Positions 41,145-64,000 of a stretch of 64,000 bases of DNA are shown piece by piece. The position numbers and the translations under genes are program-made. The stretch comes from Raja brachyura (lineage: Eukaryota). The stretch spans positions 5,022,001-5,086,000 of the forward strand of contig OY740804.1 of assembly GCA_963514005.1 (NCBI GenBank), given 5' to 3'. How positions within the stretch are numbered: the stretch's first letter is position 1; the number at the start of each line of letters is the position of its first letter. The notes beneath the pieces were generated by a model. The model saw nothing but the letters and a program-made list of their open reading frames with translations. It was not told the origin of the DNA and did no database searches.

Positions 41145-43880
41145 TTACCCCCTTATCCTTAAGCTGTGACCCCTTGTCCTGGACGGCCCCAACATCGGGA
41201 ACAATCTTCCTGCATCTAGCCTGTCCAACCCCTTAAGAATCTTGTAAGTTTCTATAAGATCCCCTCTCAATCTCCTAAATTCTAGAGAGTATAAACCGAG
41301 TCTATGCAGTCTTTGCTCATAAGACAGTCCTGACATCCCAGGAATCAGTCTGGTGAACCTTCGCTGCACTCCCTCTATGGCAATAATGTCCTTCCTCAGA
41401 TTTGGAGACCAGAACTGTACGCAATACTCCAGGTGTGGCCTCACCAAGACCCTATACAACTGAAGTAGAACCTCCCTGCTCCTATACTCAAATCCTTTTG
41501 CTATGAAAGCTAACATACCATTGGCTTTCTTCACTGCCTGTTGTACCTGCATGCCTACTTTCAATGACTGGTGTACCATGACACCCAGGTCGCGCTGCAT
41601 CTCCCCTTTTCGTAATCGGCCACCATTTAGATAGTAGTCGGTTTTCCTATTTTTGCCACCAAAGTGGATAACCTCACATTTATCCACATTATACTGCATC
41701 TGCCAAACATTTGCCCACTCACCCAGCCTATCCAAGTCACCTTGCATTCTCCTAGCATCCTCCTCACAGCTAACACTGCCCCCCAGCTTAGTGTCATCCG
41801 CAAACTTGGAGATATTGCCTTCAATTCCCTCATCCAGATCATTTATGTATATTGTAAATAGCTGGGGTCCCAGCACTGAGCCTTGCGGTACCCCACTAGT
41901 CACTGCCTGCCATTGTGAAAACGACCCGTTAACTCCTACTCTTTGCTTCCTGTTTGCCAGCCAGTTCTCTATCCACATCAATACTGAACCCCCAATGCCA
42001 TATGCTTTAAGTTTATATACTAATCGCTTATGTGGGACCTTGTCGAAAGCCTTCTGGAAGTCCAGATACACCACATCCACTGGTTCTCCCCCATCCACGC
42101 TACTAGTTACATCCTCGAAAAATTCCACAAGATTCGTCAGACATGATTTACCTTTCGTAAATCCATGCTGACTTTGTCCAATCATTTCACCACTTTCCAA
42201 ATGTGCTGCTATCCCATCTTTAATAACTGACTCTAGCAGTTTCCCCACTACCGATGTTAGACTAACTGGTCTGTAATTCCCCGTTTTCTCTCTCCCCCCC
42301 TTCTTAAAAAGAGGGGTTACGTTTGCTACCCGCCAATCCTCAGGAACTACTCCAGAATCTAAAGAGTTTTGAAAGATTATCACTAATGCATCCACTATTT
42401 CCGGAGCTACTTCCTTAAGTACTCTGGGATGCAGCCTATCTGGCCCTGGGGATTTATCGGCCTTTAATCCATTCAATTTACCCAACACCACTTCCCGACT
42501 AACCTGGATTTCACTCAAGTACTCCTTTGACCTGCGGTCCCCTGTTATTTCCGGCAGATTATTTATGTCTTCCTTAGTGAAGACGGAACCAAAGTAGTTA
42601 TTCAATTGGTCCGCCATATCCTTGTTCCCCATGATCAACTCACCTGTTTCTGACTGCAAGGGACCTACATTTGTTTTAACTAATCTCTTTCTCTTCACAT
42701 ATCTATAAAAACTTTTGCAGTCAGTTTTTATGTTCCCTGCCAGTTTTCTTTCATAATCTATTTTTCCTTTCCTAATCAAGCCCTTTGTCCTTCTCTGCTG
42801 GTCTCTGAATTTTTCCCAGTCCTCTGGTATGCTGCTTTTTCTGGCTACTTTGTACGCATCATCCTTTGCTTTGATACTATCCCTGATTTCCCTTGTTATC
42901 CACGGATTCACTACCTTCCCTGATCTATTCTTTTGCCAAATTGGGATGAACAATTTTTGTAGTTCATCCATGCAGTCTTTAAATGTCTTCCATTGCATAT
43001 CCACCGTCAACCCTTTTAGAATTGATTGCCAGTCAATCTTGGCCAATTCACGTCTCATACCCTCAAAGTTACCTTTCCTTAAGTTCAGAACCATTGTTTC
43101 TGAATTAACAATGTCACTCTCCATCCTAATGAAGAACTCAACCATATTATGGTCACTCTTGCCCAAAGGGGCACGTACAATAAGACTGCTAACTAACCCT
43201 TCCTCATTGCTCAATACCCAGTCTAAAATAGCCTGCTCTCTCGTTGGTTCCTCTACATGTTGATTTAGATAACTATCCCTCATACTTTCCAAAAAATCCT
43301 CTTCCTCAGCGCCCCTGCCAATTTGATTCACCCAATCTATATGTAGATTGAAGTCACCCATTATAACTGTTTTGCCTTTGTCGCACGCATTTCTAATTTC
43401 CTGTTTTATACCATCCCCAACTTCACTACTACTGTTAGGTGGCCTGTACACAACTCCCACTAGCGTTTTCTGCCCCTTAGTGTTTCGCAGCTCTACCCAT
43501 ACTGATTCCACATGCTCCAAGCTAATGTCCTTCCTTTCCATTGCGTTAATCTCCTCTCTAACCAGCAACGCTACCCCACCTCCTTTTCCTTTCTCTCTAT
43601 CCCTCCTGAATATTGAATACCCCTGGATGTTCAGCTCCCAGCCTTGGTCACCCTGGAGCCATGTCTCCGTGATCCCAACTATATCATACTCATTAATAGC
43701 TATCTGCACGTTCAACTCATCCACCTTATTACGAATACTCCTTGCATTGAGACACAAGGCCTTCAGGCTTGTTTTTACAACGCTCTTACCCCTTTTACTT
43801 TTCACCTTGCTCCCTATTGCTTCCACCCTCGTTTTACACCCACCTGCCTCTCTGCTCATGCTCCCACCCCCCTGCCACAC
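41145..43880 (-). CDS. CR1 ORF2 (AP endonuclease + reverse transcriptase) with a premature stop near the C-terminus
   Basis: LNARS, ITETW, MGDFN, SDH; FADD. In-frame TAA (RIRG*PFRTE) where the copy at 23.8 kb reads RIRGNSFRTE. Confidence 0.9.
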   Translation of the reverse strand: MWQGGGSMSREAGGCKTRVEAIGSKVKSKRGKSVVKTSLKALCLNARSIRNKVDELNVQIAINEYDIVGITETWLQGDQGWELNIQGYSIFRRDREKGKGGGVALLVREEINAMERKDISLEHVESVWVELRNTKGQKTLVGVVYRPPNSSSEVGDGIKQEIRNACDKGKTVIMGDFNLHIDWVNQIGRGAEEEDFLESMRDSYLNQHVEEPTREQAILDWVLSNEEGLVSSLIVRAPLGKSDHNMVEFFIRMESDIVNSETMVLNLRKGNFEGMRRELAKIDWQSILKGLTVDMQWKTFKDCMDELQKLFIPIWQKNRSGKVVNPWITREIRDSIKAKDDAYKVARKSSIPEDWEKFRDQQRRTKGLIRKGKIDYERKLAGNIKTDCKSFYRYVKRKRLVKTNVGPLQSETGELIMGNKDMADQLNNYFGSVFTKEDINNLPEITGDRRSKEYLSEIQVSREVVLGKLNGLKADKSPGPDRLHPRVLKEVAPEIVDALVIIFQNSLDSGVVPEDWRVANVTPLFKKGGREKTGNYRPVSLTSVVGKLLESVIKDGIAAHLESGEMIGQSQHGFTKGKSCLTNLVEFFEDVTSSVDGGEPVDVVYLDFQKAFDKVPHKRLVYKLKAYGIGGSVLMWIENWLANRKQRVGVNGSFSQWQAVTSGVPQGSVLGPQLFTIYINDLDEGIEGNISKFADDTKLGGSVSCEEDARRMQGDLDRLGEWANVWQMQYNVDKCEVIHFGGKNRKTDYYLNGGRLRKGEMQRDLGVMVHQSLKVGMQVQQAVKKANGMLAFIAKGFEYRSREVLLQLYRVLVRPHLEYCVQFWSPNLRKDIIAIEGVQRRFTRLIPGMSGLSYEQRLHRLGLYSLEFRRLRGDLIETYKILKGLDRLDAGRLFPMLGPSRTRGHSLRIRG

Positions 43881-44542
43881 TAGTTTAAATCCTCCCTGAC
43901 AGCACTAGCAAACACTCCCCCAAGGACATTGGTTCCATTCCAGCCCAGGTGCAGACCGTCCTGTTTGTACTGGTCCCACCTCCCCCAGAAATGGTCCCAG
44001 TGCCCTAAAAATTTGAATCCCTCCCCCTTGCACCATTTTTCAAGCCACGTATTCATCTGCAATATCCTCCTATTTCTATTCTGACTGGCCCGTGGTACTG
44101 GTAATAATCCAGAGATTATTACCTTTGAGGTCCTACTTTTGAGTTTATCTCCTAGCTCCCTAAATTCACCTTGTAGGACCTCATCCCTTTTTTTCCCTAT
44201 ATCGTTGGTGCCAATATGCACCACGACAACTGGCTGTTCACCCTCCCCCTCCAGAATGTTCTGCAGCCGTTCAGTAACATCCCTGACCTTTGCACCAGGG
44301 AGGCAACATACCATCCTGGAGTCTCTTTTGCAGCCGCAGAAATGCCTATCTATTCCCCTGACAATTGAATCCCCTATTACAATAGCCCTTCCCCTCTTTT
44401 TTCCCCCATCATGTGCTGCAGAGCCACCCATGGTGCCATGAACTTGGCTGCTGCTGCATTCCCCTGATGAGCCATCTCCCTCAACAGTATCCAAAATGGT
44501 AAACCTGTTGAGTAGGGAGATGACCGCAGGGGACTCCTGCAC
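43880..44542 (-). CDS. CR1 ORF1, 5'-truncated, SGNH/GDSL esterase domain
   Basis: IGDSIV, LPGA, HIGTND and DGLHL blocks. Confidence 0.88.
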   Translation of the reverse strand: MQESPAVISLLNRFTILDTVEGDGSSGECSSSQVHGTMGGSAAHDGGKKRGRAIVIGDSIVRGIDRHFCGCKRDSRMVCCLPGAKVRDVTERLQNILEGEGEQPVVVVHIGTNDIGKKRDEVLQGEFRELGDKLKSRTSKVIISGLLPVPRASQNRNRRILQMNTWLEKWCKGEGFKFLGHWDHFWGRWDQYKQDGLHLGWNGTNVLGGVFASAVREDLN

Positions 44543-46332
44543 AACTTATTCAACCTATCTCTGTAACTTAGCTGTTGAAACCCAGGCAACATTCTAGTAA
44601 ATCTCCTCTGTACCCTCTCTATTTTGTTAACATCCTTCCTATAATTGGGCGACCAAAATTGTACACCATACTCCAGATTTGGTCTCACCAACGCCTTGTA
44701 CAATTTTAACATTACATCCCAGCTTCTATACTCAATGCTCTGATTTATAAAGGCTAGCATACCAAAAGCTTTCTTTACCACCCTATCTATATGAGATTCT
44801 ACCTTCAAGGAACTATGCACGGTTATCCCCAGATCCCTCTGTTCAACTGTATTCTTCAATTCCCTACCGTTTACCATGTACGTCCTATTTTGATTTGTCC
44901 TGCCAAGGTGTAGCACCTCACATTTATCTGCATTAAACTCCATCTGCCATCTTTCAGCCCATTTTTCCAACTGGCCTAAATCACTCTGTAGACTTTGGAA
45001 ATCCTCTTCATTATCCACAACACCCCCTATCTTGGTATCATCTGCATACTTACTAATCCAATGTACCACCCCTTCATCCAGATCATTGATGTACATGACA
45101 AACAACAAAGGACCCAACACAGATCCCTGAGGCACCCCACTAGTCACCTGCCTCCAACCCTACAAACAGCCATCCACCATTACCCTCTGGCTTCTCCCAT
45201 TCAGCCACTGTTGAATCCATCTTGCTATTCCTGCATTTATACCCAACAGTTGAACCTTCTTAACCAACCTTCCATGAGGAACCTTGTCAAAGGCCTTACT
45301 GAAATCCATATAGACAACATCCACTGCTTTACCCTCGTCAATTTCCCTAGTAACCTCTTTAAAAAATTCAAGAAGATTAGTCAAACATGACCTTCCAGGC
45401 ATAAATCCATGTTGACTGTTCCTAATTAGACCCTCTTTATCCAGATACTTATATATATTATCTCTAAGTAGCTTTTCCATTAATTTGCCCACCACTAAAG
45501 TCAAACTAACCGGTCTATAATTGCTAGGTTTACTTTTAGAACCCTTTTTAAACAATGGAACAACATGCGCAGTACGCCAATCCTTGGGGACTATTCCAGT
45601 TTCCACCGGGAGATCAGGTTGGTTATTGCGAACCGAGCAGAGGTGTTGGGTGAAGCGATCGCCGAGCCTGCGCTTGGTCTCGCCGACGTAGAGCAGCTGA
45701 CACAGAGAGCAGCGGATGCAGTGGATGAGGTTGGAGGAGGTGCAGGTGAACCTCTGCCGCATCTGGAAAGACTGCTTAGGTCCTTGGATGGAGTCAAGGG
45801 GGGAGATAAAGCGACAAGTGTAGAATTTCCTGCGGTTGCAAGGGAAAGTACCAAAGGAGGGGGTGGTTTGGTTGGGAAGGGACGAATTGACCAGGGAGTT
45901 ATGGATGGAACGGTCTCTGTGGAAAACCGAAAGGGGAGGAGATGGGAAGATGTGGCCGGTGGTGGGATCCCATTGGAGGTGGTGAAAATGTCGGAGGATT
46001 ATCTGGTGTATGTGACGGCTGGTCGGGTGGAAGGTGAGGACAAGGGGGACTCTGCCCTTGTTATGAGTGAGGGGATGGGGAGTGAGGGCAGAGTTACATA
46101 TAGAAGAGACCCTGGCGAGAGCCTCATCTATAGTAGAATAGGGGAACCCCCGTTCCCAAAAGAATGATGACATCTCCGAAGGTTGGAGGAGCCCACCTCC
46201 ATTTGGGCAGTTTACACCTCAGCAATATGAACATTGACTTCTCCAATATCAGGTAGTCCCCGCTATCTCCCTCTTTCCCCTTCCCAACTCTCCCACAGCC
46301 CACTGTCTCCGCCGCTTGCTTTCTTCTACCCA

Positions 46333-49289: not shown

Positions 49290-49895
49290 ACCCCCCCCCT
49301 CTCCCACCTCTCTCTCTCCCTCCCTCTCTCTCTCCTCCACCCCTCTCTCTCTCTCCCCCTACACCTCCCTCTCTCTCTCTCTCTCCCCCACCCCTCTCTC
49401 TCCCCCTCTCTCTCTCCCCCCCTCTCTCTCTCTCTCCCACCTCGCTCTCCCACCTCGCTCTCNNNNNNNNNNNNNNNNNNNNNNNNNNNNNNNNNNNNNN
49501 NNNNNNNNNNNNNNNNNNNNNNNNNNNNNNNNNNNNNNNNNNNNNNNNNNNNNNNNNNNNNNNNNNNNNNNNNNNNNNNNNNNNNNNNNNNNNNNNNNNN
49601 NNNNNNNNNNNNNNNNNNNNNNNNNNNNNNNNNNNNNNNNNNNNNNNNNNNNNNNNNNNNNNNNNNNNNNNNNNNNNNNNNNNNNNNNNNNNNNNNNNNN
49701 NNNNNNNNNNNNNNNNNNNNNNNATCTCTCTCTCTCTCCCCCACCTCTCTATCTCTCTCTCTCTCTCCCCCACCTCTCTATCTCTCTCTCTCTTCCCCCC
49801 AGCTCTCCCCCCACCTCTCTCTCCCACCTCTCTCTCCCCTCCTCCCTGTTTCCCCCCCCTTCTCTCTCTGCCATCACTCTCTACCCACCCCCCTC
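49290..49895. repeat. CT-rich low-complexity tract containing an assembly gap (N 49463-49723)
   Basis: Seen directly. Confidence 0.95.
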
Positions 49896-51147: not shown

Positions 51148-51468
51148 TTTCAGGTGCGGTGTGGGGGAAGGATCGTGTAGGAGGAGTTGTGGGAAGAGCG
51201 GTCACAGTCGATTGTCACTATGAAGCAAAGTACCGCTCACACACAAAATACTGGTGTCACGGGTGGGATCGCCAGTGTAGAGTTTTAATGGAAACAAATG
51301 GGCAACACGGACGGAGTGGAAGTGCATCAATCACAGATAACCCGGCACGAGGAATATTTACTGTGACTGTGGAGGATCTTCGCTCTAGAGATACAGGGTG
51401 GTACAGCTGTGGAATTGCTACACCTGGCTTGGATCCATTGTTTAACGTTCATCTCCAAGTATTTGACG
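51148..51468 (+). CDS. CD300/pIgR-like IgV exon of another gene (intact, four Cys)
   Basis: CCCTCAG| VSGAVWGKDRVGGVVGRAVTVDCHY..KYWCHGWDRQC..DTGWYSCG..VFD G|GTACGT; no stops. Confidence 0.9.
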
Positions 51469-52398
51469 GTACGTTTCTCAGCGATTGACTTGACGTCTCC
51501 ACGACGCCTGATCCATGTTTTCTCCGGGAAGGGTCAGGGCAGCACCGATATCCCGAGGCTCCGCAGCAGTGCAGAGACCTGCGGGGAGCGGGCGGGGGTC
51601 GGGAAACCCCACTCATGTTGCTCTCACCCAGTGCGGGCTCGGTCCCACTGAGCGGCCACCCACTTCAAGTGGGATGCTCAGCACATTTCCCTGCCTCTGA
51701 ACTGTGTTAAATGTTACCCTGTCAGAGGTTTGCATTCCGACTCAAACTAATAATCCGTTGGGAACAGATCACTGAGAAACAAGTGTTGCCCGCGGTCTGA
51801 ATACCCGGAGAATGTTAAACAGGGAATCAGACCCGTGAGTTCAACAGACTGCGTTCATTCCTCCCGGGGCAGGCCAGCCCGCTCCCCGCTCCCACCTCAG
51901 GGGCCAATCACTCCCTCCCCACCCAGCGGTCTCTCTCTGTGTCTCCCTCTGTCCCGTCAATGCGCCCCCACCCCCAGCAGCCACTCACTACTGCCCACCC
52001 ACTGCCCGGCAGCCAGCCAGCATCTCCACCTGGCCCAATCTCGGAGGAAATTTGAGTAAAGCTTTCCTAATCAGACCTTTCAGGAAATTCCGGGCGACCT
52101 CCACCTTCCCCGAGTTTCTGGGCTTCTCAGACTGACAATATCTCTCGTTGTCTCCACCCCGATATCAGCACCAATGGGTTCCCTTCCAGTTGTAGGCCAC
52201 TTCATCCCAGCACAACTATCGCCTCTCTCTATAGCCACCGAACATTGGACAGGTGTATGACAGGTGAACAAAACCATAAGTGCTGGAAGAACATAGCGGG
52301 TCAGGTAGCATCTGTGGAGGGAATGGACAAAACCAACTCGAGTCGTGACCCTCTTTCAGACAGACGGAGTAAGGGAGGAGAAAGCTGGAATTGAGAAA

Positions 52399-52527
52399 NN
52401 NNNNNNNNNNNNNNNNNNNNNNNNNNNNNNNNNNNNNNNNNNNNNNNNNNNNNNNNNNNNNNNNNNNNNNNNNNNNNNNNNNNNNNNNNNNNNNNNNNNN
52501 NNNNNNNNNNNNNNNNNNNNNNNNNNN
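52399..52527. other. Assembly gap (N run) over the 5' junction of Tx1 copy 1
   Basis: Seen directly. Confidence 1.
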
Positions 52528-53035
52528 CTCTGCAGTTGAGAAGGATTGGAGCAGCCTTTCCAGGATTTTGCCGTTGGAGAGGGCACAGACCCAGGGGGGC
52601 TTCATAGTTCAACTTATTGTTGGGCTGTTGAAGCTTTTCTCTGGTCTGGGGAGCCTCCATCTGTGTGAAGATTCCTGAGTTTCTCCACATTGTCGAGGGT
52701 GCGGTTGGCGTTGGCGGATTGCCAAGAGTGCCTGTGATCTCCGTGGGCTGAAGTTGTGCGGTGTCTTTGTCGTTTTTGGCTCCGCTTCTCTGCCCTAAAG
52801 TCATTTTGCTCAGTGCGGCTGCCTGGCTTAATGTGAAGAAGGTACTTTTGCGTCCAGCGCGACTGGGATCGAGTTTCCCGTAAGCTGCTCTTGGCTGTGG
52901 ATGAACCTGGGGACTTTCCTGCTTCAGCTGGAGGTTTCTGTTTTCTGCTGCCTGTCTTTGACTGTGACTGTCTCTGGGACTTAACTTGGAGCTGTGCTGC
53001 TGAGGTGCTTGGAGCTGGTTTGTGCCTCTGTGAGG

Positions 53036-55390
53036 ATGGCGATGGAAGGGGCGCGGCCGAAGGTCCGGACCTACGCAGCGACGGCATCAGTGGCGGGTGC
53101 GAGGCCATCTGAGCTTGAGCCTCATGTTGACTTGGATGGGGACAGTTTTGGTATTTCTGTTCAAACTGGGCCTATGATGTCTAGGGGGGTAATTACGAAG
53201 GCCATGAATGAACTTCTTGGGAGGGGGGCTATTGTCTCTTCTGAGCTCGAAAGGGGAAAGGTGGAGATGATACTTAAGACCCGGGAGTGTGTGGCCCGAG
53301 CGTTGGAGGAGGGGATCTCAGTGGGGGGGGTCCACGTACAGGTGGATCCGTGGGTATCCAGGGTGAGACCGGTTCTCCTGCGGAGCTGCCCCACTTATTT
53401 TTCGGATGCAGTGCTTATTCCACACCTGTCCAAGTTTGGGGAGGTGCGGTCTAAATGTTTTCGTCTCTTGCATCCCGGGGGGGACCCGGAGGAAAAAGGG
53501 GTCTTCAGTTTCAAGAGGAGGGTGTTCATGAAGGTGGGTGAGGGGGATGGTGCCGAGGGGAGTTTTGAGGTGGTGCATAAGGGTGTACCCAGAACCGTGC
53601 GTTGGAGTTGGGGAAAGGCACGGTGTCATGCGTGCGGCGAATTTGGACATCTCCGTAGGGAGTGTCTTTTTCGCGGGGGCACTGCTAGAGGTTCTAGTGT
53701 AGTGGCCCAGGAAAGCGCTGCTGGCCCATCTGGGGTGGCTGGTCAAACCTCAGCGGCGCGGGGTGGTACTGCTGACCCGGCTGAGGTTGCCAGTTCTGCC
53801 TTGGTGACCCGGGGCGGCAGTGCTAAGCCTTCTGGGTCCAGAGGTTCCGCTTTGGGGACCCTGGGCAGTGAGAGCCCAAGCCCCCCACGTCCCCTACGTC
53901 TTGCGCCTGTGGCGGTGGATGGAGGTGGGGCGCAGGAGGAGGGGAGTGTTGAGGGGGGGTTTTGGGAGAAGCAGGGGAAGCATAATAAGAAGAAGGAGAG
54001 GGATAGGGCTGCCCGAGCGAAGAAAGTGCAATCGGGTGAGTTTGGCTCCAGTGTGGTGCAGACTGCACCTGCTGGGGCCCAGGGGGGAGTTGTGATGGCT
54101 CGGAAGGGGGGAAAGAAGTCTAAACGTGTGGGTGGCAAAGTGGTTGGGGGTAATGTGGAGGCGGATGACCCTTCCCTTATGGAGGTTACCGCACCTCCGC
54201 ATGCGAGTGGGACTAAAAGGAGGCATTTGCCTGGTGAAGAGGAGGAAGGGCGTGGGTCCAGAGCGAAGGGGATGTCTTTCTCCGAGCTTTCCACCACTGA
54301 GGTGGCTGAAAGTGGTCTTGACCCGGTGTCTTCTGGGTCGGTGGTTGGGCCTTCTCTTCATGGATCTACAGCGGGTGTCACCGGACTGGGTGCTGAAGTT
54401 GATTCCGGTGGAGTTGTGTCCACTGGGCGGGAGTCTGTCCCTTCATCTCAGGGGCCCTCTGAGGGAGTTATCTCGGCGGATGCTGTGGTTAGCTCCCTTG
54501 GGTGTGTACCCTCTGGGTCGGATGAGGTCCCCTCGTTTCAGAGGCCTACTGAGGGTGCTAGCAAGGTAGATGACGTGGTTGGCTCCTCTGGTAGTGTGCC
54601 CTCTGTGACGGGGGGTGGGCAGAGTCAGGCTGAGGGGGGAGTTTCGGGGGTGTTGTCGTTCAAGTCTGTGCTCCATATCAGTGCCAGTGGAGGTGCTGGG
54701 GGGCGGGATGCCTCACCGGATGAGTTGTCTGGGGTGAGGTTAATGGCAGGTGGTGATTCTCTGGGTGATGCCTGTGGAGAGGGCACTCTGGATGATGTGG
54801 AGGTCAGGGCTGTTATGGGACGTGATCCTCTTTCAGACTCCGAGGGTGCCAGTGTTCCACAGGCCCTGGGGATGCCTCTTGTTGTTGCTTCCCCAGGCCC
54901 AGAGGAGGAGGGTGATGGTAGCGTGCAGGAGCCCAGCCATTCAGAGGGCTGCGAGTCTCAGGTAGGGGTGTTGGGACCCACCCCCAGCATTGATCCGGGT
55001 GGTCGTGTCATGGCTGTGGAGGAGGATAGCGATGCGGCCAGTGGGGGGGGCTCAGAGAGTGTTGTGTCAGACAGTTCTGGTCTTTCTGAGGTTGTTGATT
55101 CAGGTGCGAGCGGGTTGGCTGAGAGCCCAGACTCCAAGGCCGTGTCTGAGGCGAAGCTTATTGTTGAGGTGCGAGAGTTCTTAAAAATAAGTCGTGCTCC
55201 CAAAACATTATGGTGGGCCATTACAAGGAGATGGGAGGATTGGCTAGATGTGCGGGAGAGTCTCGAGGCTATCCTTAGTAACAAGGATAGTGGTCTTTCT
55301 GACTCGGATTTGGGGCAGTTTTGGGGTTTGTTGAAGGTCCTCAGAAAAGGACCTCCTGTGACTACAGGGAGTGTGAGGGTCACAATCTAA
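53036..55390 (+). CDS. Tx1-like ORF1 (gag-like, CCHC knuckle, long acidic/Ser-Gly region), 784 aa from the first ATG
   Basis: RTYA start, LSKFGEV, CHACGEFGHLRREC. Confidence 0.88.
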   Translation: MAMEGARPKVRTYAATASVAGARPSELEPHVDLDGDSFGISVQTGPMMSRGVITKAMNELLGRGAIVSSELERGKVEMILKTRECVARALEEGISVGGVHVQVDPWVSRVRPVLLRSCPTYFSDAVLIPHLSKFGEVRSKCFRLLHPGGDPEEKGVFSFKRRVFMKVGEGDGAEGSFEVVHKGVPRTVRWSWGKARCHACGEFGHLRRECLFRGGTARGSSVVAQESAAGPSGVAGQTSAARGGTADPAEVASSALVTRGGSAKPSGSRGSALGTLGSESPSPPRPLRLAPVAVDGGGAQEEGSVEGGFWEKQGKHNKKKERDRAARAKKVQSGEFGSSVVQTAPAGAQGGVVMARKGGKKSKRVGGKVVGGNVEADDPSLMEVTAPPHASGTKRRHLPGEEEEGRGSRAKGMSFSELSTTEVAESGLDPVSSGSVVGPSLHGSTAGVTGLGAEVDSGGVVSTGRESVPSSQGPSEGVISADAVVSSLGCVPSGSDEVPSFQRPTEGASKVDDVVGSSGSVPSVTGGGQSQAEGGVSGVLSFKSVLHISASGGAGGRDASPDELSGVRLMAGGDSLGDACGEGTLDDVEVRAVMGRDPLSDSEGASVPQALGMPLVVASPGPEEEGDGSVQEPSHSEGCESQVGVLGPTPSIDPGGRVMAVEEDSDAASGGGSESVVSDSSGLSEVVDSGASGLAESPDSKAVSEAKLIVEVREFLKISRAPKTLWWAITRRWEDWLDVRESLEAILSNKDSGLSDSDLGQFWGLLKVLRKGPPVTTGSVRVTI

Positions 55391-58300
55391 TGTGTCTACA
55401 CATTCACAGTAGCTACATTAAATTTAAATGGGAGTAGAGCGAGTTTTCGAAGATTTCAGCTCTTATCAGCCCTAAGGGAGGGGAGATTTGCAGTTTGTTA
55501 TCTGCAAGAGACACATACCGTTGCTAGTGATGAACCTACCTGGCAACTGGAGTGGGAAGGGAGGGTTTATATGAGCCATCTCAGCTCAAATTCGAGTGGG
55601 GTGGCTTTTTTGTTGGCCCCAAATTTTCTGCCAAGCATTTTAAAAGTGCAGGAAGTGGTGCCAGGACGTTTGCTCCATCTGGCCGTGAGCCTGGATGGCA
55701 TGCCGTTGCATTTCATTAACGTGTATGCCCCTAGCTCCGGCACGATGCAGGCCGGCCTGCTTCGGGAGGTGAATGCTCTGTTGGGCACTATTGATAGGGG
55801 AGAGTGTGTCTTCCTTGGTGGGGACTTTAATTGCACACTTGAGGTGCGGGACCGTTCTGGTACTCAGTGTGCGCCTGCTGTAGCGAAGAAGCTGAGAGGC
55901 TTGATTGACTCCTTTGAGTTGGTTGATGTTTGGAGGGACCTTCACCCTGATTCCACTGCTTTTTCGCGGAGGTCTGAGGGCGGTGGTTCCCGCATTGATC
56001 GGTTTTATATTTCCCGAGCGTTTGTTTCCCGTGTCTCAGCGGCCTCAATGCGGCTGGTGCCGTGCTCGGACCATTGTCTGGTGCGTGTGGATTTCAATCC
56101 AGCGTGCGCTCGGGCTGGGTCCGCGTACTGGCACTTTAACAACAGGCTGCTGGAGGATCGGTGTTTCCGGGAGTCATTCACTCGGTTTTGGGTGAAGTGG
56201 AGAGAGAGGCAGAGGTGCTTCTCTTCCCTTAGGCAGTGGTGGGATGTGGGTAAAGCTCACATCCGTCTCTTTTGTAAGGAATATACATGGGGGTCGACTG
56301 GGAGGCGGGACTCAGCGGTCGCGAAGCTGGAGAGGGAGATACAGGACGCTGAGTCTCGCCTGGGTCAGTTTGGTGAAGACTCCAGCGAATGGGGAGAGTT
56401 TCAGAGGAAGAAGGAGGTTTTGAGGAGTCTGCTGCTTGAGCGATCTCGAGGCGCTTATGTGAGGTCTCGGGTCCAGATGCTGCACGAGCTGGACCGAGCG
56501 TCGCCTTTCTTTTTCTCTTTGGAGAAGGGGCGGGGAGCTCGAAAACAGCTCGTGGAGTTGCTTGCAGATGACGGCTCCTCTGTCACTGATCCAGAGAGGA
56601 TTAATGCCTTGGTTAGGTCCTTTTATGGGACCCTGTTCTCTGCGGAAGGATTCAGTGTGGAGGCTCAGCAAGATCTGTGGGAGGGTCTACCGGCCGTAGA
56701 TAGGGGGGAGGCTGATCTTCTTGATGGCCCCTTATCTTTGGAGGAGTTGACTTGCGCCTTGCATCAGCTCAGGAGGGGTAAGTCCCCCGGGCTGGATGGG
56801 TTGACGGTGGAGTTTGTTAGAGCATTCTGGGACGTCCTAGGGGGTGACTATATGTTGGTTTTGGGGGAGAGCCTGGCGACTGGAGTGATGCCTCTCTCGT
56901 GGCGTAGGACGGTTGTTGTCTTGCTGCCTAAGAAGGGCGAACTCCGTTTGTTGAAGAACTGGCGTCCAGTCTCTCTCCTTTGCACAGAATATAAAATTTT
57001 TGCACGGGCAATGGCAAATCGCCTGGGCTCCGTGCTGCATCAAGTGATTCATCCTGATCAATCTTATACAGTCCCTGGCCGGTCCATCCAGGATAACATC
57101 CACCTGGTTAGGGACCTGATTCATTTAGTCCAGGGTACTGGTGAGTCAGCTGCTTTTCTGTCTCTTGATCAGGAGAAGGCTTTTGATAGGGTAGAGCATG
57201 AATACCTATTTGGGACGTTGCAAGCGTTTGGGTTTGGACCACACTTCGTGGCCCGGGTCCGGCTTTTGTACGCTGCGGCGGAGTGTCTTGTAAAGGTTAA
57301 TGGCGCGGTGCTATCTCCTTTTCATTTTGGGAGGGGGGTCCGCCAGGGGTGCCCTATGTCGGGCCAGTTGTATTCGGTCTGTGTGGAGCCGTTCCTGTGT
57401 CTTCTTCGGAGGAGGTTGACAGGCCTGGCCCTACCTGGCCCGCGGGTTGAGGTGATTCTATCGGCGTATGCCGATGACGTACTTCTTATGTTCACTGATC
57501 CTGGTGACCTGCGGAGGATGCGTGACTGCCAGGAGATATTCTCGGCTGCATCTTCTGCTAGGATTAACTGGAGTAAGTGCTCTGGACTTTTGGTGGGTCA
57601 GTGGCGGGTAGACTCCCTGCCGGAGGAGATGGCATTGTATGCGTGGAGTACCACGCACCTCCTCTATCTGGGGGTGTACCTGAGTCCCACTGAGGATGTT
57701 TGGCCGGCAAACTGGCAAGAGTTGGAGACGAAGGTGGTTGCTCGGCTGGGGCGCTGGTCAGGCCTGCTTGGAGTTCTCTCCTTTCGGGGGAGGGTGCTGG
57801 TCATAAACCAGCTGGTGGCCTCTATGTTATGGTACCGGCTGGCTACTCTTGTCCCGCCCTCTATATTTGTAACTGCTATACAGAAGAAGCTGGTGGATTT
57901 CTTTTGGGGAAATAGGAAGCATTGGATTTCCGCGGCGGTCCTGAGTCTTCCGTTAGAGGAGGGCGGCCAGTCCTTGGTGTGCGTGCGCACCCAGGTGGCG
58001 GCTCTCCGTCTCAGGACTCTGCGGAGATACATGTATGTAGAGAACCCTCCCAGATGGCACGCTCTGGCCACGTATTTTTTTCGTCAGGGTCGTTGCCTAA
58101 GGGGGGTCTCGCGGCTCCCGGTGGCGGGTGTCAGTCGACCCGCTCTAAGGGGCTTGCCTGTTTTCTATAGGGATGTGTTAAGAGTGAGGAATTTGGTGGT
58201 GTTCAGCCAGAGTGTTGTTCCACGAGGAGAGGGGGATGTTGTGGCTGCGGGTGTGGCTGGTCCTCATCCTGTCATGGTGGTTGTCGAGGAGAGGCGCGAG

Positions 58301-59098
58301 CCTAGAGTGGTTCAGATAGAGCTTACCCCTGCTCCGTCAGATCTGCTCATCGGGCCTAGGCTTCGGGATATTTCTCGGCCTCCGGCTCCGCATAATCTGA
58401 GCTGCCTTTCTGAGATGACCAGCATGCCATTTTGTGATGCAAGGAGACGCGCACTGTACAGGATGCTCCTGCACATTCTGAACCACCGTGCCTTCGTCTC
58501 CCGTCCTGACTCACCATGGAGGACGGTGTTACCATCCGAAGGCGGCGGGGGGCCCCAGTGGGGGTCCTTCTATAAGGGAGTTGTACCCCTTTATATTGGG
58601 GACCTGGGGTGGAGAGTGCTGCATGGAGCGGTGGTTTGTAATAAACTTTTGAGTCGGTTCACGGGCTCGTCTGCCGCATGTATTTTCTGCGGAGAGGAGG
58701 AGACCGTATTCCATGTGTATATGGAGTGTGTGAGGTTACTGCCCCTGTACCAATATCTGAAGGGGCTGTTCCTCAAGTTCTGGCTGCATTTTAGCCCCAC
58801 AATCCTGGTGTTTGGACACAAGGCGGGGAGTGGGGAGAGCCGAGTGTGGGGGGGGGACTTACCTGTCGGTTTGCTCCTTGGCCTGGCCAAGATGGCCATT
58901 CGTGGGTCCAGGCAGCGGGCGGTCGACGGTCTGGCGAGAGTCGGCTGCCTGCCCCTCTTTCGGGCCTACGTCCGTGCACGTGTGTCCCTGGAGAGGGAAC
59001 ACGCGGTGTTCACGGGGACTCTGGAGGCCTTCCGTCAGCGCTGGTCGCCGCGTGGGGTTGAGGCGATTATAAATGAATGTACTGCTGTACTACAATGA
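55391..59098 (+). CDS. Tx1-like ORF2 (APE + RT + C-terminal CCHC); open frame begins directly after the ORF1 stop, first ATG only at 55571
   Basis: TLNLNG, LQETH, NVYAP, GGDFN, SDH, KSPGLDG, NWRPVSLL, RQGCPMS, YADD, CIFCGEEETVFHVYMEC. Confidence 0.93.
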   Translation, partial: CVYTFTVATLNLNGSRASFRRFQLLSALREGRFAVCYLQETHTVASDEPTWQLEWEGRVYMSHLSSNSSGVAFLLAPNFLPSILKVQEVVPGRLLHLAVSLDGMPLHFINVYAPSSGTMQAGLLREVNALLGTIDRGECVFLGGDFNCTLEVRDRSGTQCAPAVAKKLRGLIDSFELVDVWRDLHPDSTAFSRRSEGGGSRIDRFYISRAFVSRVSAASMRLVPCSDHCLVRVDFNPACARAGSAYWHFNNRLLEDRCFRESFTRFWVKWRERQRCFSSLRQWWDVGKAHIRLFCKEYTWGSTGRRDSAVAKLEREIQDAESRLGQFGEDSSEWGEFQRKKEVLRSLLLERSRGAYVRSRVQMLHELDRASPFFFSLEKGRGARKQLVELLADDGSSVTDPERINALVRSFYGTLFSAEGFSVEAQQDLWEGLPAVDRGEADLLDGPLSLEELTCALHQLRRGKSPGLDGLTVEFVRAFWDVLGGDYMLVLGESLATGVMPLSWRRTVVVLLPKKGELRLLKNWRPVSLLCTEYKIFARAMANRLGSVLHQVIHPDQSYTVPGRSIQDNIHLVRDLIHLVQGTGESAAFLSLDQEKAFDRVEHEYLFGTLQAFGFGPHFVARVRLLYAAAECLVKVNGAVLSPFHFGRGVRQGCPMSGQLYSVCVEPFLCLLRRRLTGLALPGPRVEVILSAYADDVLLMFTDPGDLRRMRDCQEIFSAASSARINWSKCSGLLVGQWRVDSLPEEMALYAWSTTHLLYLGVYLSPTEDVWPANWQELETKVVARLGRWSGLLGVLSFRGRVLVINQLVASMLWYRLATLVPPSIFVTAIQKKLVDFFWGNRKHWISAAVLSLPLEEGGQSLVCVRTQVAALRLRTLRRYMYVENPPRWHALATYFFRQGRCLRGVSRLPVAGVSRPALRGLPVFYRDVLRVRNLVVFSQSVVPRGEGDVVAAGVAGPHPVMVVVEERREPRVVQIELTPAPSDLLIGPRLRDISRPPAPHNLSCLSEMTSMPFCDARRRALYRMLLHILNHRAFVSRPDSPWRTVLPSEGGGGPQWGSFYKGVVPLYIGDLGWRVLHGAVVCNKLLSRFTGSSAACIFCGEEETVFHVYMECVRLLPLYQYLKGLFLKFWLHFSPTILVFGHKAGSGESRVWGGDLPVGLLLGLAKMAIRGSRQRAVDGLARVGCLPLFRAYVRARVSLEREHAVFTGTLEAFRQRWSPRGVEAIINECTAVLQ

Positions 59099-59196
59099 TC
59101 TGTTCATTATAGTGTGATTTTTGATTGTGTTTTGATGTGTTGTATTTTATGATTTGTGTTGAATAAAGTTTTTGAAATGAAAAAAAAAAAAAAAAA

Positions 59197-59205
<9 letters not shown>

Positions 59206-59240
<35 letters not shown>
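59206..59240. repeat. (GA)n spacer between the tandem Tx1 copies
   Basis: About 17 GA units directly after the polyA. Confidence 0.95.
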
Positions 59241-59246
<6 letters not shown>

Positions 59247-59772
59247 GTCGTGTTTGCTTCTCAGCTCTGCAGTTGAGAAGGATTGGAGCAGCCTTTCCAG
59301 GATTGTGCCGTTGGAGAGGGCACAGACCCAGGGGGGCTTCATAGTTCAACTTATTGTTGGGCTGTTGAAGCTTTTCTCTGGTCTGGGGAGCCTCCATCTG
59401 TGTGAAGATTCCTGAGTTTCTCCACATTGTCGAGGGTGCGGTTGGCGTTGGCGGATTGCCAAGAGTGCCTGTGATCTCAGTGGGCTGAAGTTGTGCGGTG
59501 TCTTTGTCGTTTTTGGCACCGCTTCTCTGCCCTAAAGTCATTTTGCTCAGTGCGGCTGCCTGGCTTAATGTGAAGAAGGTACTTTTGCGTCCAGCGCGAC
59601 TGGGATCGAGTTTCCCGTAAGCTGCTCTTGGCTGTGGACGAACCTGGGGACTTTCCTGCTTCAGCTGGAGGTTTCTGTTTTCTGCTGCCTGTCTTTGACT
59701 GTGACTGTCTCTGGGACTTAACTTGGAGCTGTGCTGCTGAGGGGCTTGGAGCTGGTTTGTGCCTCTGTGAGG

Positions 59773-62127
59773 ATGGCGATGGAAGGGGCGCGGCCGATGG
59801 TCCGGACCTACGCAGCGACGGCATCAGTGGCGGGTGCGAGGCCATCTGAGCTTGAGCCTCATGTTGACTTGGATGGGGACAGTTTTGGTATTTCTGTTCA
59901 AACTGGGCCTATGATGTCGAGGGGGGTAATTACGAAGGCCATGAATGAACTTCTTGGGAGGGGGGCTATTGTCTCTTCTGAGCTCGAAAGGGGAAAGGTG
60001 GAGATGATACTTAAGACCCGGGAGTGTGTGGCCCGAGCGTTGGAGGAGGGGATCTCAGTGGGGGGGGTCCACGTACAGGTGGATCCGTGGGTATCCAGGG
60101 TGAGACCGGTTCTCCTGCGGAGCTGCCCCACTTATTTTTCGGATGCAGTGCTTATTCCACACCTGTCCAAGTTCGGGGAGGTGCGGTCTAAATGTTTTCG
60201 TCTCTTGCATCCCGGGGGGGACCCGGAGGAAAAAGGGGTCTTCAGTTTCAAGAGGAGGGTGTTCATGAAGGTGGGTGAGGGGGATGGCGCCGAGGGGAGT
60301 TTTGAGGTGGTGCATAAGGGTGTACCCAGAACCGTGCGTTGGAGTTGGGGCAAGGCACGGTGTCATGCGTGCGGCGAATTTGGACATCTCCGTAGGGAGT
60401 GTCTTTTTCGCGGGGGCACTGCTAGAGGTTCTAGTGCAGTGGCCCAGGAAAGCGCTGCTGGCCCATCTGGGGTGGCTTGTCAAACCTCAGCGGCGCGGGG
60501 TGGTACTGCTGACCCGGCTGAGGTTGCCAGTTCTGCCTTGGTGACCCGGGGCGGCAGTGCTAAGCCTTCTGGGTCCAGAGGTTCCGCTTTGGGGACCCTG
60601 GGCAGTGAGAGCCCAAGCCCCCCACGTCCCCTACGTCTTGCGCCTGTGGCGGTGGATGGAGGTGGGGCGCAGGAGGAGGGGAGTGTTGAGGGGGGGTTTT
60701 GGGAGAAGCAGGGGAAGCATAATAAGAAGAAGGAGAGGGATAGGGCTGCCCGAGCGAAGAAAGTGCAATCGGGTGAGTTTGGCTCCAGTGTGGTGCAGAC
60801 TGCACCTGCTGGGGCCCAGGGGGGAGTTGTGGTGGCTCGGAAGGGGGGAAAGAAGTCTAAACGTGTGGGTGGCAAAGTGGTTGGGGGTAATGTGGAGGCG
60901 GATGACCCTTCCCTTATGGAGGTTACCGCACCTCCGCATGCGAGTGGGACTAAAAGGAGGCATTTGCCTGGTGAAGAGGAGGAAGGGCGTGGGTCCAGAG
61001 CGAAGGGGATGTCTTTCTCCGGGCTTTCCACCACTGAGGTGGCTGAAAGTGGTCTTGACCCGGTGTCTTCTGGGTCGGTGGTTGGGCCTTCTCTTCATGG
61101 ATCTACAGCGGGTGTCACCGGACTGGGTGCTGAAGTTGATTCCGGTGGAGTTGTGTCCACTGGGCGGGAGTCTGTCCCTTCATCTCAGGGGCCCTCTGAG
61201 GGAGTTATCTCGGCGGATGCTGTGGTTAGCTCCCTTGGGTGTGTACCCTCTGGGTCGGATGAGGTCCCCTCGTTTCAGAGGCCTACTGAGGGTGCTAGCA
61301 CGGTAGGTGACGTGGTTGGCTCCTCTGGTAGTGTGCCCTCTGTGACGGGGGATGTGCAGAGTCAGGCTGAGGGGGGAGTTTCGGGGGTGTTGTCGTTCAA
61401 GTCTGTGCTCCATATCAGTGCCAGTGGAGGTGCTGGGGGGCGGGATGCCTCACCGGATGAGTTGTCTGGGGTGAGGTTAATGGCAGGTGGTGATTCTCTG
61501 GGTGATGCCTGTGGAGAGGGCACTCTGGATGATGTGGAGGTCAGGGCTGTTATGGGACGTGATCCTCTTTCAGACTCCGAGGGTGCCAGTGTTCCACAGG
61601 CCCTGGGGATGCCTCTTGTTGTTGCTTCCCCAGGCCCGGAGGAGGAGGGTGATGGTAGCGGGCAGGAGCCCAGCCATTCAGAGGGCTGCGAGTCTCAGGT
61701 AGGGGTGTTGGGACCCACCCCCAGCATTGATCCGGGTGGTCGTGTCATGGCTGTGGAGGAGGATAGCGATGCGGCCAGTGGGGGGGGCTCAGAGAGTGTT
61801 GTGTCAGACAGTTCTGGTCTTTCTGAGGTTGTTGATTCAGGTGCGAGCGGGTTGGCTGAGAGCCCAGACTCCAAGGCCGTGTCTGAGGCGAAGCTTATTG
61901 TTGAGGTGCGAGAGTTCTTAAAAATAAGTCGTGCTCCCAAAACATTATGGTGGGCCGTTACAAGGAGATGGGAGGATTGGCTAGATGTGCGGGAGAGTCT
62001 CGAGGCTATCCTTAGTAACAAGGATAGTGGTCTTTCTGACTCGGATTTGGGGCAGTTTTGGGGTTTGTTGAAGGTCCTCAGAAAAGGACCTCCTGTGACT
62101 ACAGGGAGTGTGAGGGTCACAATCTAA
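59773..62127 (+). CDS. Tx1-like ORF1, copy 2
   Basis: Same length as copy 1, about 11 amino acid differences. Confidence 0.88.
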   Translation: MAMEGARPMVRTYAATASVAGARPSELEPHVDLDGDSFGISVQTGPMMSRGVITKAMNELLGRGAIVSSELERGKVEMILKTRECVARALEEGISVGGVHVQVDPWVSRVRPVLLRSCPTYFSDAVLIPHLSKFGEVRSKCFRLLHPGGDPEEKGVFSFKRRVFMKVGEGDGAEGSFEVVHKGVPRTVRWSWGKARCHACGEFGHLRRECLFRGGTARGSSAVAQESAAGPSGVACQTSAARGGTADPAEVASSALVTRGGSAKPSGSRGSALGTLGSESPSPPRPLRLAPVAVDGGGAQEEGSVEGGFWEKQGKHNKKKERDRAARAKKVQSGEFGSSVVQTAPAGAQGGVVVARKGGKKSKRVGGKVVGGNVEADDPSLMEVTAPPHASGTKRRHLPGEEEEGRGSRAKGMSFSGLSTTEVAESGLDPVSSGSVVGPSLHGSTAGVTGLGAEVDSGGVVSTGRESVPSSQGPSEGVISADAVVSSLGCVPSGSDEVPSFQRPTEGASTVGDVVGSSGSVPSVTGDVQSQAEGGVSGVLSFKSVLHISASGGAGGRDASPDELSGVRLMAGGDSLGDACGEGTLDDVEVRAVMGRDPLSDSEGASVPQALGMPLVVASPGPEEEGDGSGQEPSHSEGCESQVGVLGPTPSIDPGGRVMAVEEDSDAASGGGSESVVSDSSGLSEVVDSGASGLAESPDSKAVSEAKLIVEVREFLKISRAPKTLWWAVTRRWEDWLDVRESLEAILSNKDSGLSDSDLGQFWGLLKVLRKGPPVTTGSVRVTI

Positions 62128-64000
62128 TGTGTCTACACATTCACAGTAGCTACATTAAATTTAAATGGGAGTAGAGCGAGTTTTCGAAGATTTCAGCTCT
62201 TATCAGCCCTAAGGGAGGGGAGATTTGCAGTTTGTTATCTGCAAGAGACACATACCGTTGCTAGTGATGAACCTACCTGGCAACTGGAGTGGGAAGGGAG
62301 GGTTTATATGAGCCATCTCAGCTCAAATTCGAGTGGGGTGGCTTTTCTGTTGGCCCCAAATTTTCTGCCAAGCATTTTAAAAGTGCAGGAAGTGGTGCCA
62401 GGACGTTTGCTCCATCTGGCCGTGAGCCTGGATGGCATGCCGTTGCATTTCATTAACGTGTATGCCCCTAGCTCCGGCACGATGCAGGCCGGCCTGCTTC
62501 GGGAGGTGAATGCTCTGTTGGGCACTATTGATAGGGGAGAGTGTGTCTTCCTTGGTGGGGACTTTAATTGCACACTTGAGGTGCGGGACCGTTCTGGTAC
62601 TCAGTGTGCGCCTGCTGTAGCGAAGAAGCTGAGAGGCTTGATTGACTCCTTTGAGTTGGTTGATGTTTGGAGGGACCTTCACCCTGATTCCACTGCTTTT
62701 TCGCGGAGGTCTGAGGGCGGTGGTTCCCGCATTGATCGGTTTTATATTTCCCGAGCGTTTGTTTCCCGTGTCTCAGCGGCCTCAATGCGGCTGGTGCCGT
62801 GCTCGGACCATTGTCTGGTGCGTGTGGATTTCAATCCAGCGTGCGCTCGGGCTGGGTCCGCGTACTGGCACTTTAACAACAGGCTGCTGGAGGATCGGTG
62901 TTTCCGGGAGTCATTCACTCGGTTTTGGGTGAAGTGGAGAGAGAGGCAGAGGTGCTTCTCTTCCCTTAGGCAGTGGTGGGATGTGGGTAAGGCTCACATC
63001 CGTCTCTTTTGTAAGGAATATACATGGGGGTCGACTGGGAGGCGGGACTCAGCGGTCGAGAAGCTGGAGAGGGAGATACAGGACGCTGAGTCTCGCCTGG
63101 GTCAGTTTGGTGAAGACTCCAGCGAATGGGGAGAGTTTCAGAGGAAGAAGGAGGTTTTGAGGAGTCTGCTGCTTGAGCGATCTCGAGGCGCTTATGTGAG
63201 GTCTCGGGTCCAGATGCTGCACGAGCTGGACCGAGCGTCGCCTTTCTTTTTCTCTTTGGAGAAGGGGCGGGGAGCTCGAAAACAGCTCGTGGAGTTGCTT
63301 GCAGATGACGGCTCCTCTGTCACTGTTCCAGAGAGGATTAATGCCTTGGTTAGGTCCTTTTATGGGACCCTGTTCTCTGCGGAAGGATTCAGTGTGGAGG
63401 CTCAGCAAGATCTGTGGGAGGGTCTACCGACCGTAGATAGGGGGGAGGCTGATCTTCTTGATGGCCCCTTATCTTTGGAGGAGTTGACTCGCGCCTTGCA
63501 TCAGCTCAGGAGGGGTAAGTCCCCCGGGCTGGATGGGTTGACGGTGGAGTTTGTTAGAGCATTCTGGGACGTCCTAGGGGGTGACTATATGTTGGTTCTG
63601 GGGGAGAGCCTGGCGACTGGAGTGATGCCTCTCTCGTGGCGTAGGACGGTTGTTGTCTTGCTGCCTAAGAAGGGCGAACTCCGTTTGTTGAAGAACTGGC
63701 GTCCAGTCTCTCTCCTTTGCACAGAATATAAAATTTTTGCACGGGCAATGGCAAATCGCCTGGGCTCCGTGCTGCATCAAGTGATTCATCCTGATCAATC
63801 TTATACAGTCCCTGGCCGGTCCATCCAGGATAACATCCACCTGGTTAGGGACCTGATTCATTTAGTCCAGGGTACTGGTGAGTCAGCTGCTTTTCTGTCT
63901 CTTGATCAGGAGAAGGCTTTTGATAGGGTAGAGCATGAATACCTATTTGGGACGTTGCAAGCGTTTGGGTTTGGACCACACTTCGTGGCCCGGGTCCGGC
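62128..64000 (+). CDS. Tx1-like ORF2, copy 2 (partial)
   Basis: Same in-frame arrangement after TAA 62125-62127; no stop seen to the window end. Confidence 0.85.

What the first reader, a model, noticed from the sequence alone, without database searches (positions are those of the whole stretch)
52528..64000. Head-to-tail array of young, open-frame Tx1 LINEs joined by polyA-(GA)n: candidate microsatellite-targeting family
Seen: two copies with period 6737 bp, both with open ORFs, differing by scattered substitutions (about 11 aa in ORF1), separated only by A26 + (GA)17. An N gap hides the first 5' junction, next to GA-rich flank. Known: the Tx1 clade includes sequence-specific families, among them Kibi (TC repeats) and Koshi (TTC repeats) in teleosts. 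Inference: an active chondrichthyan family that inserts repeatedly into the same (GA/TC)n tract and builds arrays.
Basis: partly seen in the sequence, partly recalled or inferred. Interest (0 to 1): 0.72.

Follow-up and report, generated by a model that had tools for sequence, protein, structure and literature searches.

The report
Tandem Tx1 LINEs in GA repeat
Two young, intact copies of a shark-or-ray jumping gene sit head to tail around a GA repeat; they look like separate insertions, and they face the repeat the opposite way from the known fish elements that target it, which hints at a changed targeting enzyme.

Summary
In detail: two Tx1-clade LINE copies, period 6737, 28 substitutions and no indel in 4736 bp, open frames, joined by A26+(GA)17. 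Near-identical sequence lies in runs under nine organism labels. Polarised with contigs of three runs, copy 1 has 16 private changes, copy 2 has 9, and none is shared; their spectra differ. This favours two separate insertions. The element is not Kibi: it groups with Xenopus Tx1L, sturgeon and turtle elements (100/100), and placement in the Kibi-type clade is rejected (p-AU 9e-38). Kibi-type loci carry (TC)n on the sense strand (11 of 21 at both ends); this element carries (GA)n, the opposite polarity. Its endonuclease hairpin loop has 7 residues, not 11, and ORF2 lacks a start AUG. Targeting rests on two 3' junctions only: the window and one contig with A13-GAGAGA. No genome was held, so flanks could not be surveyed. 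The scan noted tandem Tx1 pairs at other targets in other genomes, none for this sequence. Verdict: new variant of a known kind; GA targeting likely but unproven.

The parts
52275..52398 (.). Upstream flank: end of an abundant dispersed repeat, purine-rich on the + strand, ending in GCTGGAATTGAGAAA at the gap edge
   Evidence: blastn finds it at 71-87% in more than 20 other places of the window; another copy continues GCTGGAATAGAGGTG, with no long GA tract
52399..52527 (.). N gap of 129 hiding the 5' junction of copy 1 (25 nt of it should be element 5' end)
   Evidence: the only other N run (49463-49723) has CT-repeat sequence on both edges
52528..53035 (+). Copy 1 5' UTR (first 19-25 nt hidden)
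   Evidence: matches 59265-59772 with 5 substitutions
53036..55390 (+). Copy 1 ORF1, 784 aa: RRM-like part and CCHC knuckle, then a long low-complexity region; ends in TAA
   Evidence: 22-34% identity to ORF1s of teleost Tx1 loci; ZCCHC3-like RRM/CCHC clusters by features, 0.91-0.94 (lead only)
55388..55420 (+). ORF1/ORF2 junction: one TAA, ORF2 continues in the same frame with no AUG until residue 61; the AUG of the TAATG pentamer is out of ORF2's frame and opens a 15-codon ORF
   Evidence: contigs of X1, X2 and X18 cross it without a gap (table 8)
55391..59098 (+). Copy 1 ORF2, 1235 codons: APE endonuclease, reverse transcriptase, C-terminal zinc motif
   Evidence: Pfam PF03372, PF00078, weak PF13966; E40, Y112, D145, N147, D203, H228 invariant in 16 relatives; model matches L1 endonuclease, TM 0.86-0.88
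55967..55987 (+). Endonuclease bB6-bB5 hairpin loop, 7 residues (RRSEGGG) instead of 11
   Evidence: alignment, loop census, alignment to PDB 2v0s and 2v0r
59099..59179 (+). Copy 1 3' UTR with AATAAA at 59162-59167
   Evidence: sequence
59180..59205 (+). Poly(A) tail, A26
59206..59245 (+). Linker (GA)17 + GGGAGA: putative target tract kept between the two insertions
   Evidence: an X3 contig stops 19 nt upstream of the laid stretch, which equals 59246 in copy 2
59246..59772 (+). Copy 2 5' UTR, starting about GGTCGTG
59773..62127 (+). Copy 2 ORF1, open, 98.6% identical in protein to copy 1
62128..64000 (+). Copy 2 ORF2, open to the window's end (624 codons)

Best explanation
A young chondrichthyan LINE of the Xenopus-Tx1L branch of the Tx1 clade inserted twice, at different times, at one GA-repeat site. 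Shown: element anatomy, lineage, star-like divergence of the two copies, (GA)n behind the poly(A) on the sense strand. Inferred: its APE endonuclease nicks the TC strand of GA/TC dinucleotide runs; the freed TC end primes reverse transcription of the poly(A)-tailed RNA, so every insertion reads poly(A)-GAGA... and keeps GA repeat at its ends; that regenerated tract took the second copy, downstream of the first. Copy 1 is probably the older (GC-to-AT, mostly non-synonymous decay); copy 2 came from a slightly later source. The polarity is the reverse of Kibi-type elements, and the four-residue shortening of the endonuclease hairpin loop in this lineage is the candidate cause. Short runs such as (GA)3 may suffice, so this may be a preference rather than strict specificity.
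For: 28 substitutions, no indels. All 28 polarised with fully accounted contigs of X1-X3: 16 private to copy 1, 9 to copy 2, 3 with both letters present among runs; no site where both copies differ from all three runs. GC-to-AT 11 of 16 against 0 of 9, Fisher p 0.001, post hoc; N:S 11:2 against 3:4, p 0.12. One contig of a related copy in X1 reads A13-GAGAGA-TGAT; GAGAGA follows an A in 59 of 20294 background positions (0.3%). The sister clade targets the same dinucleotide: 11 of 21 teleost loci placed on the tree have (TC)6+ at both ends, 5 more at one end. Tree and AU test. Loop 7 aa in 3 of 3 chondrichthyan-type rows, 11 aa in Tx1L, sturgeon, turtle and all aligned teleost rows; loop size alters nick choice in L1 endonuclease (PMC1950540, passages). 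Double insertion leaves target sequence in the junction (PMC5932611, passages; SINEU-3 tandems in PMC4494074).
Against: Only two 3' junctions and one 5' junction were seen; the second 3' junction has only three GA units and comes from a diverged copy. None of the 10 displayed 5'-side loose ends shows (GA)n; by eye 9 are diverged element sequence and one (X18, 58862) is unrelated non-GA sequence (70 of 90 loose ends not shown, and human-like contigs are dropped). The nearest named relative, Xenopus Tx1L, targets a DNA transposon, not a microsatellite. GA repeats can grow out of poly(A) tails (PMC3812793, passage). 16 against 9 private changes is not a significant age difference (p 0.23). 7-residue loops also occur in 13 unrelated rows, so the loop link is correlation only. 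No read or contig spans the junction.
Confidence: 0.55

Rival explanations
1. The GA repeat belongs to the element's own end (born from or carried with the poly(A) tail, or a 5' head), and the real target is looser: any purine run, or the purine-rich end of the dispersed repeat at the left flank. The second copy landed beside the first because that site was regenerated.
For: Left gap edge reads TT-GAGAAA inside a dispersed repeat whose other copy has only a short GAG motif there; an L1-like TT/purine site (PMC1950540). Nearest relative targets another repeat. Microsatellites arise at LINE tails. The short loop resembles R1Bm-length loops that relaxed L1 endonuclease specificity.
Against: The X1 junction runs from (GA)3 into unrelated sequence, and the X3 contigs stop exactly at the element's last base and at GGTCGTG, so no fixed GA extension is shared by all copies there (letters beyond the ends not shown). 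The sister clade targets the same dinucleotide.
Confidence: 0.2
2. One insertion was duplicated locally (unequal exchange through the GA tracts, or a template-jump dimer), and the copies then diverged.
For: Tandem LINE arrays expand by unequal exchange (PMC5932611). A duplication soon after insertion leaves no shared private change either.
Against: No shared private change; three sites where the copies carry different letters that both occur in other runs; unequal mutation spectra.
Confidence: 0.13
3. Assembly artefact: two haplotypes or two loci were joined through (GA)n overlaps next to a gap.
For: An N gap abuts copy 1; the region is a duplicated Ig-domain gene cluster; 0.6% divergence could be allelic; nothing laid spans the junction.
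Against: No flank is duplicated between the copies; no indels; alleles of one insertion should share changes made before they split and decay alike. Such a mis-join would itself need (GA)n at both ends of family copies, so it would remove the array but not the target claim.
Confidence: 0.12

Closest known systems
Xenopus laevis Tx1L (Tx1 ORF2, P14381)
   Same: Nearest named element: RT 64%, APE 45% identical; same clade at 100/100 with sturgeon and turtle proteins, branching as the hosts do; two ORFs, APE-RT.
   Different: Tx1L inserts in the DNA transposon Tx1D; 11-residue hairpin loop and AUG-initiated ORF2, against 7 residues and no AUG here.
Kibi and Koshi (teleost Tx1 families in (TC)n and (TTC)n)
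   Same: Sister clade (97/96); same dinucleotide tract; AATAAA, short spacer and A-tail running straight into the repeat.
   Different: RT only 47-48% identical to BAC82605 and BAC82609; membership rejected by AU test; (TC)n on the sense strand there, (GA)n here; loop 11 against 7. That these accessions are Kibi/Koshi is recalled and only indirectly backed (AB097136 = Kibi_Tr, PMC4746887).
Crocodilian Tx1 group in (TTCC)n/(TTTC)n (Kojima 2015)
   Same: Microsatellite-preferring Tx1 outside teleosts, described as close to Kibi and Koshi (PMC4494074 section 15); may be the group of the turtle proteins found here (not tested).
   Different: Repeat unit differs; no sequence was available, the figure and supplement could not be read.
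Tandem dimers by double insertion (Drosophila R1 and other non-LTR tandems; SINEU-3)
   Same: Head-to-tail copies with target sequence in the junction.
   Different: Here two near full-length, open-frame 6.7 kb copies; no target-site duplication could be delimited.
TRAS and SART of Bombyx (recalled, no call)
   Same: Two APE-type lineages that use one repeat in opposite orientations.
   Different: R1 clade, telomeric repeat, insects; an analogy only.

Membership tests
Tx1 clade | Two ORFs; ORF2 with APE, RT and C-terminal zinc motif; poly(A) end | tested here: met
Tx1 clade | APE-RT phylogeny groups with Xenopus Tx1 | tested here: met
   100/100 clade with P14381
Kibi/Koshi | Nested in the teleost Kibi-type clade | tested here: not met
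   AU test, log-likelihood 187 lower, p 8.6e-38, 30 rows, LG+G4
Kibi/Koshi | (TC)n or (TTC)n on the element's sense strand at both ends | tested here: not met
   (GA)n on the sense strand here; (TC)n in 11 of 21 teleost loci at both ends, none with (GA)n at a terminus
Microsatellite-targeting Tx1 (working rule of Kojima 2015: over 20% of flanks) | The repeat flanks a large share of genomic copies | tested here: inconclusive
   2 of 2 visible poly(A) junctions have GAGAGA (window); no genome held
Tx1L (Xenopus) | Insertion in a Tx1D-like DNA transposon at a fixed site | tested here: inconclusive
   left flank is a dispersed repeat end; junction hidden by N; Tx1D sequence not available
Keno, Dewa, Mutsu | Insertion in U2 snRNA, tRNA or 5S rRNA genes | tested here: not met
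   no Rfam match at gathering score in the window; the gap itself cannot be read
Keno, Dewa, Mutsu | Phylogenetic position against named members | not tested
   no labelled sequences came back
Tandem by double insertion | Target-site duplication in the junction, matched at the outer flanks | not testable with these tools
   left junction in N gap, right junction outside the window
Active family | Insertion polymorphism or expression | not testable with these tools
   contigs only; no run on record as RNA

The most novel reading that the evidence does not exclude
A chondrichthyan branch of Tx1L-type LINEs lost four residues of the endonuclease's DNA-reading hairpin and now nicks the opposite strand of the same GA/TC microsatellite that teleost Kibi uses, giving vertebrates a pair of opposite-facing microsatellite LINEs; it builds tandem arrays by repeated insertion and makes ORF2 without a start AUG (stop read-through or non-AUG reinitiation).
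Probability: 0.3. Interest if true: 0.65.

Novelty: new variant of a known kind. Interest (0 to 1): 0.45.

Why it matters
How APE-type LINE endonucleases come to choose microsatellites is described as poorly understood (PMC3812793), and loop grafts in L1 endonuclease changed but did not transfer specificity (PMC1950540). A young, intact vertebrate family with reversed polarity on the same repeat and a natural loop deletion would give a clean natural comparison with Kibi and Tx1L, testable with purified domains. It also offers insertion markers for rays and sharks and a case of a TE dimer caught before array expansion. If the GA link fails, it is an ordinary young Tx1 dimer.

Tried and rejected
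Own-genome search: no genome held, so flanks were not surveyed. Exact patterns from the element's ends: 0 matches in viral contigs and metagenome contigs. Alignment scan of viral contigs: 79 candidates, none confirmed. Metagenome and genome scans returned 80 and 18 loci, none of the window's own branch (best segments at most 46%). ORF1 residues 1-240: 0 hits among 2614 candidates. Expression: no RNA holder listed; X18 is only guessed to be RNA and holds a 96-99% alike version over most of the element, so it is not counted. Contig depth was not used as copy number. X3 lacks cover in 7 of 30 bins, which proves nothing. The linker was not part of the laid stretch, so junction-spanning was not tested. 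pN/pS between copies 0.62, not different from neutral (p 0.33). No paralogous empty site beside the second Ig exon. Earlier findings by sequence and by place: none. Kojima and Fujiwara 2004 and Christensen 2000 are not held; the supplement of PMC4494074 could not be read and may hold flank tables that bear on polarity in crocodilians. Rejected: membership of Kibi/Koshi; RNA-gene target in the readable flank; sequencing-error origin of the 28 differences (no indels; 19 of the copy-2 letters recur in other runs).
Full report
Observation. Copy 1 (52528-59179) and copy 2 align at an offset of 6737 with 28 substitutions and no indel over the 4736 bp that can be compared: 5 in the 5' UTR, 11 non-synonymous and 5 synonymous in ORF1, 4 and 3 in ORF2. 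Both ORF1s are open, ORF2 is open for 1235 codons in copy 1 and to the window's end in copy 2. The linker is A26, (GA)17, GGGAGA, then the element's 5' end. ORF2 carries APE, RT and a weak zf-RVT match; the catalytic residues are invariant in an alignment of 16, and the modelled endonuclease (pLDDT 92) matches human L1 endonuclease at TM 0.86-0.88. A 129-base N run hides the first 5' junction. The only other N run in the window has CT repeats on both edges, a weak hint that gaps fall in such tracts. The left flank is the end of an abundant dispersed repeat. Only two copies are visible.

Host and family. The nearest proteins are from a stingray and a horn shark (RT 80%, APE 68%), so the host is inferred to be chondrichthyan; the species was not determined. 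Of 24 listed runs, 17 hold half or more of the element's words, under nine organism labels and ten studies, one of which may be the window's source. Main contigs of X1, X2 and X3 differ from copy 1 at 5 of 3102, 18 of 4856 and 10 of 1632 bases. The family is therefore young and shared by several related organisms. Older relatives (88-95% alike) pile up on the last 450 bases. Current activity and expression are not shown.

How the dimer arose. Twelve contigs of X1-X3 whose differences are all listed polarise all 28 sites: 16 are private to copy 1, 9 to copy 2, and at 3 both letters occur among the runs. At no site do both copies differ from all three runs. Copy 1's changes are GC-to-AT in 11 of 16 cases, copy 2's in 0 of 9 (Fisher p 0.001, noticed after the fact); N:S is 11:2 against 3:4 (p 0.12). 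The counts alone do not differ (p 0.23). This fits copy 1 decaying in place and copy 2 arriving later from a slightly changed source, and fits a local duplication or a haplotype mis-join less well, without excluding them: a duplication right after insertion leaves no shared change, and nothing laid spans the junction. Double insertion at one target, with target sequence kept in the junction, is a known route to non-LTR tandems (PMC5932611, passages; PMC4494074, passages).

Lineage. ORF2 is closer to Xenopus Tx1 ORF2 (RT 64%, APE 45%) than to the teleost pol-like proteins BAC82605 and BAC82609 (RT 47-48%, APE 31-36%). A careful tree of 30 APE-RT rows puts it with sturgeon, Xenopus and turtle proteins at 100/100, in host order, as sister (97/96) to the teleost-rich clade; forcing it into the ten-row clade that holds BAC82603, BAC82605 and BAC82609 is rejected (p-AU 8.6e-38, LG+G4). 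Two quick trees of 55 and 58 rows agree on the clade; its sister position was unresolved. That these accessions are Kibi or Koshi is recalled; the only backing seen is AB097136 = Kibi_Tr (PMC4746887, one passage). Keno, Dewa and Mutsu could not be labelled.

Polarity. The metagenome scan returned 80 loci; 21 fell in the teleost-rich clade (L020 and L027 were left out as too short). Eleven of the 21, about eight distinct families, carry (TC)6 or more on the sense strand at both ends, five more at one end, one has an imperfect TC-rich 3' flank and four show none, at least three because the contig stops early; none has (GA)n at a terminus. This confirms directly that the clade is Kibi-type and fixes its orientation. 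The window element has (GA)n behind its poly(A) and before its 5' end on the sense strand: the same tract, entered the other way round. By the standard target-primed mechanism this means the first nick falls on the TC strand here and on the GA strand in Kibi-type elements (inference).

Is GA the target? No genome was held, so the decisive flank survey was impossible. Among 20 displayed loose ends of 90, one reaches past a poly(A): a related copy in X1 reads A13-GAGAGA-TGAT. GAGAGA follows an A at 59 of 20294 background positions, so this is unlikely by chance, but it is one junction, with three units only. None of the ten displayed 5'-side loose ends shows (GA)n; by eye nine are diverged element sequence and one is unrelated sequence; the tool drops human-like contigs, which may remove GA-rich ones. 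X3 contigs stop exactly at the element's last base and 19 nt upstream of the laid stretch, which marks GGTCGTG (59246) as the likely 5' end with variable sequence before it; an X2 contig runs 37 nt upstream, letters not shown. Against strict targeting: the nearest named relative uses a DNA transposon, microsatellites can grow from LINE tails (PMC3812793, passages), and the left gap edge, TT-GAGAAA, also fits a loose purine-run preference.

Two lineage features. First, the endonuclease bB6-bB5 hairpin loop has 7 residues here, in the Heterodontus protein and in P0151, against 11 in Tx1L, sturgeon, turtles and all 11 teleost rows aligned; across all stored proteins that fit the motif, 140 of 216 have 11 and 16 have 7, so short loops are not unique. 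The best PDB sequence match is the L1 chimera with the R1Bm loop of the same length. Loop size changes nicking choice in L1 endonuclease (PMC1950540, passages). The loop is the least certain part of the model (pLDDT 55). A causal link to the polarity is a hypothesis. Second, ORF2 follows ORF1 in frame behind one TAA, and its first Met is residue 61, behind the catalytic Asn11 and Glu40; the AUG of the TAATG pentamer is out of frame. Contigs of three runs cross the junction without gaps, and the two closest relatives are annotated from internal Met codons. SART1 uses UAAUG with an in-frame AUG (PMC3894237, passages); here read-through or non-AUG reinitiation is needed (AUG-independent L1 ORF2 translation is recalled, no call).

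Novelty. Target-preferring Tx1 families, including microsatellite targets outside teleosts, and tandems by double insertion are known (PMC4494074, passages and section 15; PMC8869645 and PMC2684134, passages). Searches listed no paper on a chondrichthyan or GA-facing Tx1; I saw listings and abstract starts only, Repbase and subscription journals are not searched, the 2004 and 2000 primary papers are not held and the 2015 supplement could not be read. The scan holds no note on this sequence or genome and two unchecked notes on tandem Tx1 pairs at other targets. Verdict: a real young Tx1L-branch LINE dimer, probably two insertions, probably GA-directed with reversed polarity: a new variant of a known kind, interest 0.45.

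Noticed in passing
window 51153-51470 (+) and 11328-11689 (+): Two Ig V-set exons, 88% alike in DNA (Pfam V-set 8e-10), with a fragment near 39967; they look like CD300/pIgR-type receptors (recalled). The dimer lies about 1 kb downstream of one, in the same orientation, probably in an intron of a duplicated immune-receptor cluster.
   Followed up: partly
window 55388-55420 and 62125-62157: ORF2 lacks an in-frame AUG before residue 61 and follows a single TAA in frame; conserved in contigs of three runs.
   Followed up: partly
window 58700-59179: Many contigs of 88-95% alike relatives cover only the last 450 bases in X1 and X18: older truncated subfamilies or a derived short element.
   Followed up: no
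run X2, contig 24, laid on 58937-59154: A diverged 3' fragment that goes back 218 bases without a poly(A): a small tandem duplication of the 3' end.
   Followed up: no
window 41145-43904 (-), 22948-24000 (+), 44377-45159 (-): CR1-like LINE frames; the 919-codon one has APE and RT matches, preceded by an esterase-like ORF at 43880-44545 (by eye).
   Followed up: no
window 45160-46218 (-): Frame that joins a Penelope-like GIY-YIG stretch (by eye) to an RT fragment (Pfam): nested repeats.
   Followed up: no
window 49308-49868: Long CT-rich low-complexity tract with a 261-base N run, 3 kb upstream of the dimer, with no Tx1 copy visible beside it.
   Followed up: partly
L081-L098: Eighteen loci in records titled as bacterial MAGs encode Tx1/L1-type ORF2s, several per contig; most likely animal host DNA binned into those genomes.
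   Followed up: no
P0086, P0096: Two ENA proteins 98% identical to ORF2, each from a contig of 18092 bases: a further near-identical copy with flanks that no open tool could fetch.
   Followed up: no
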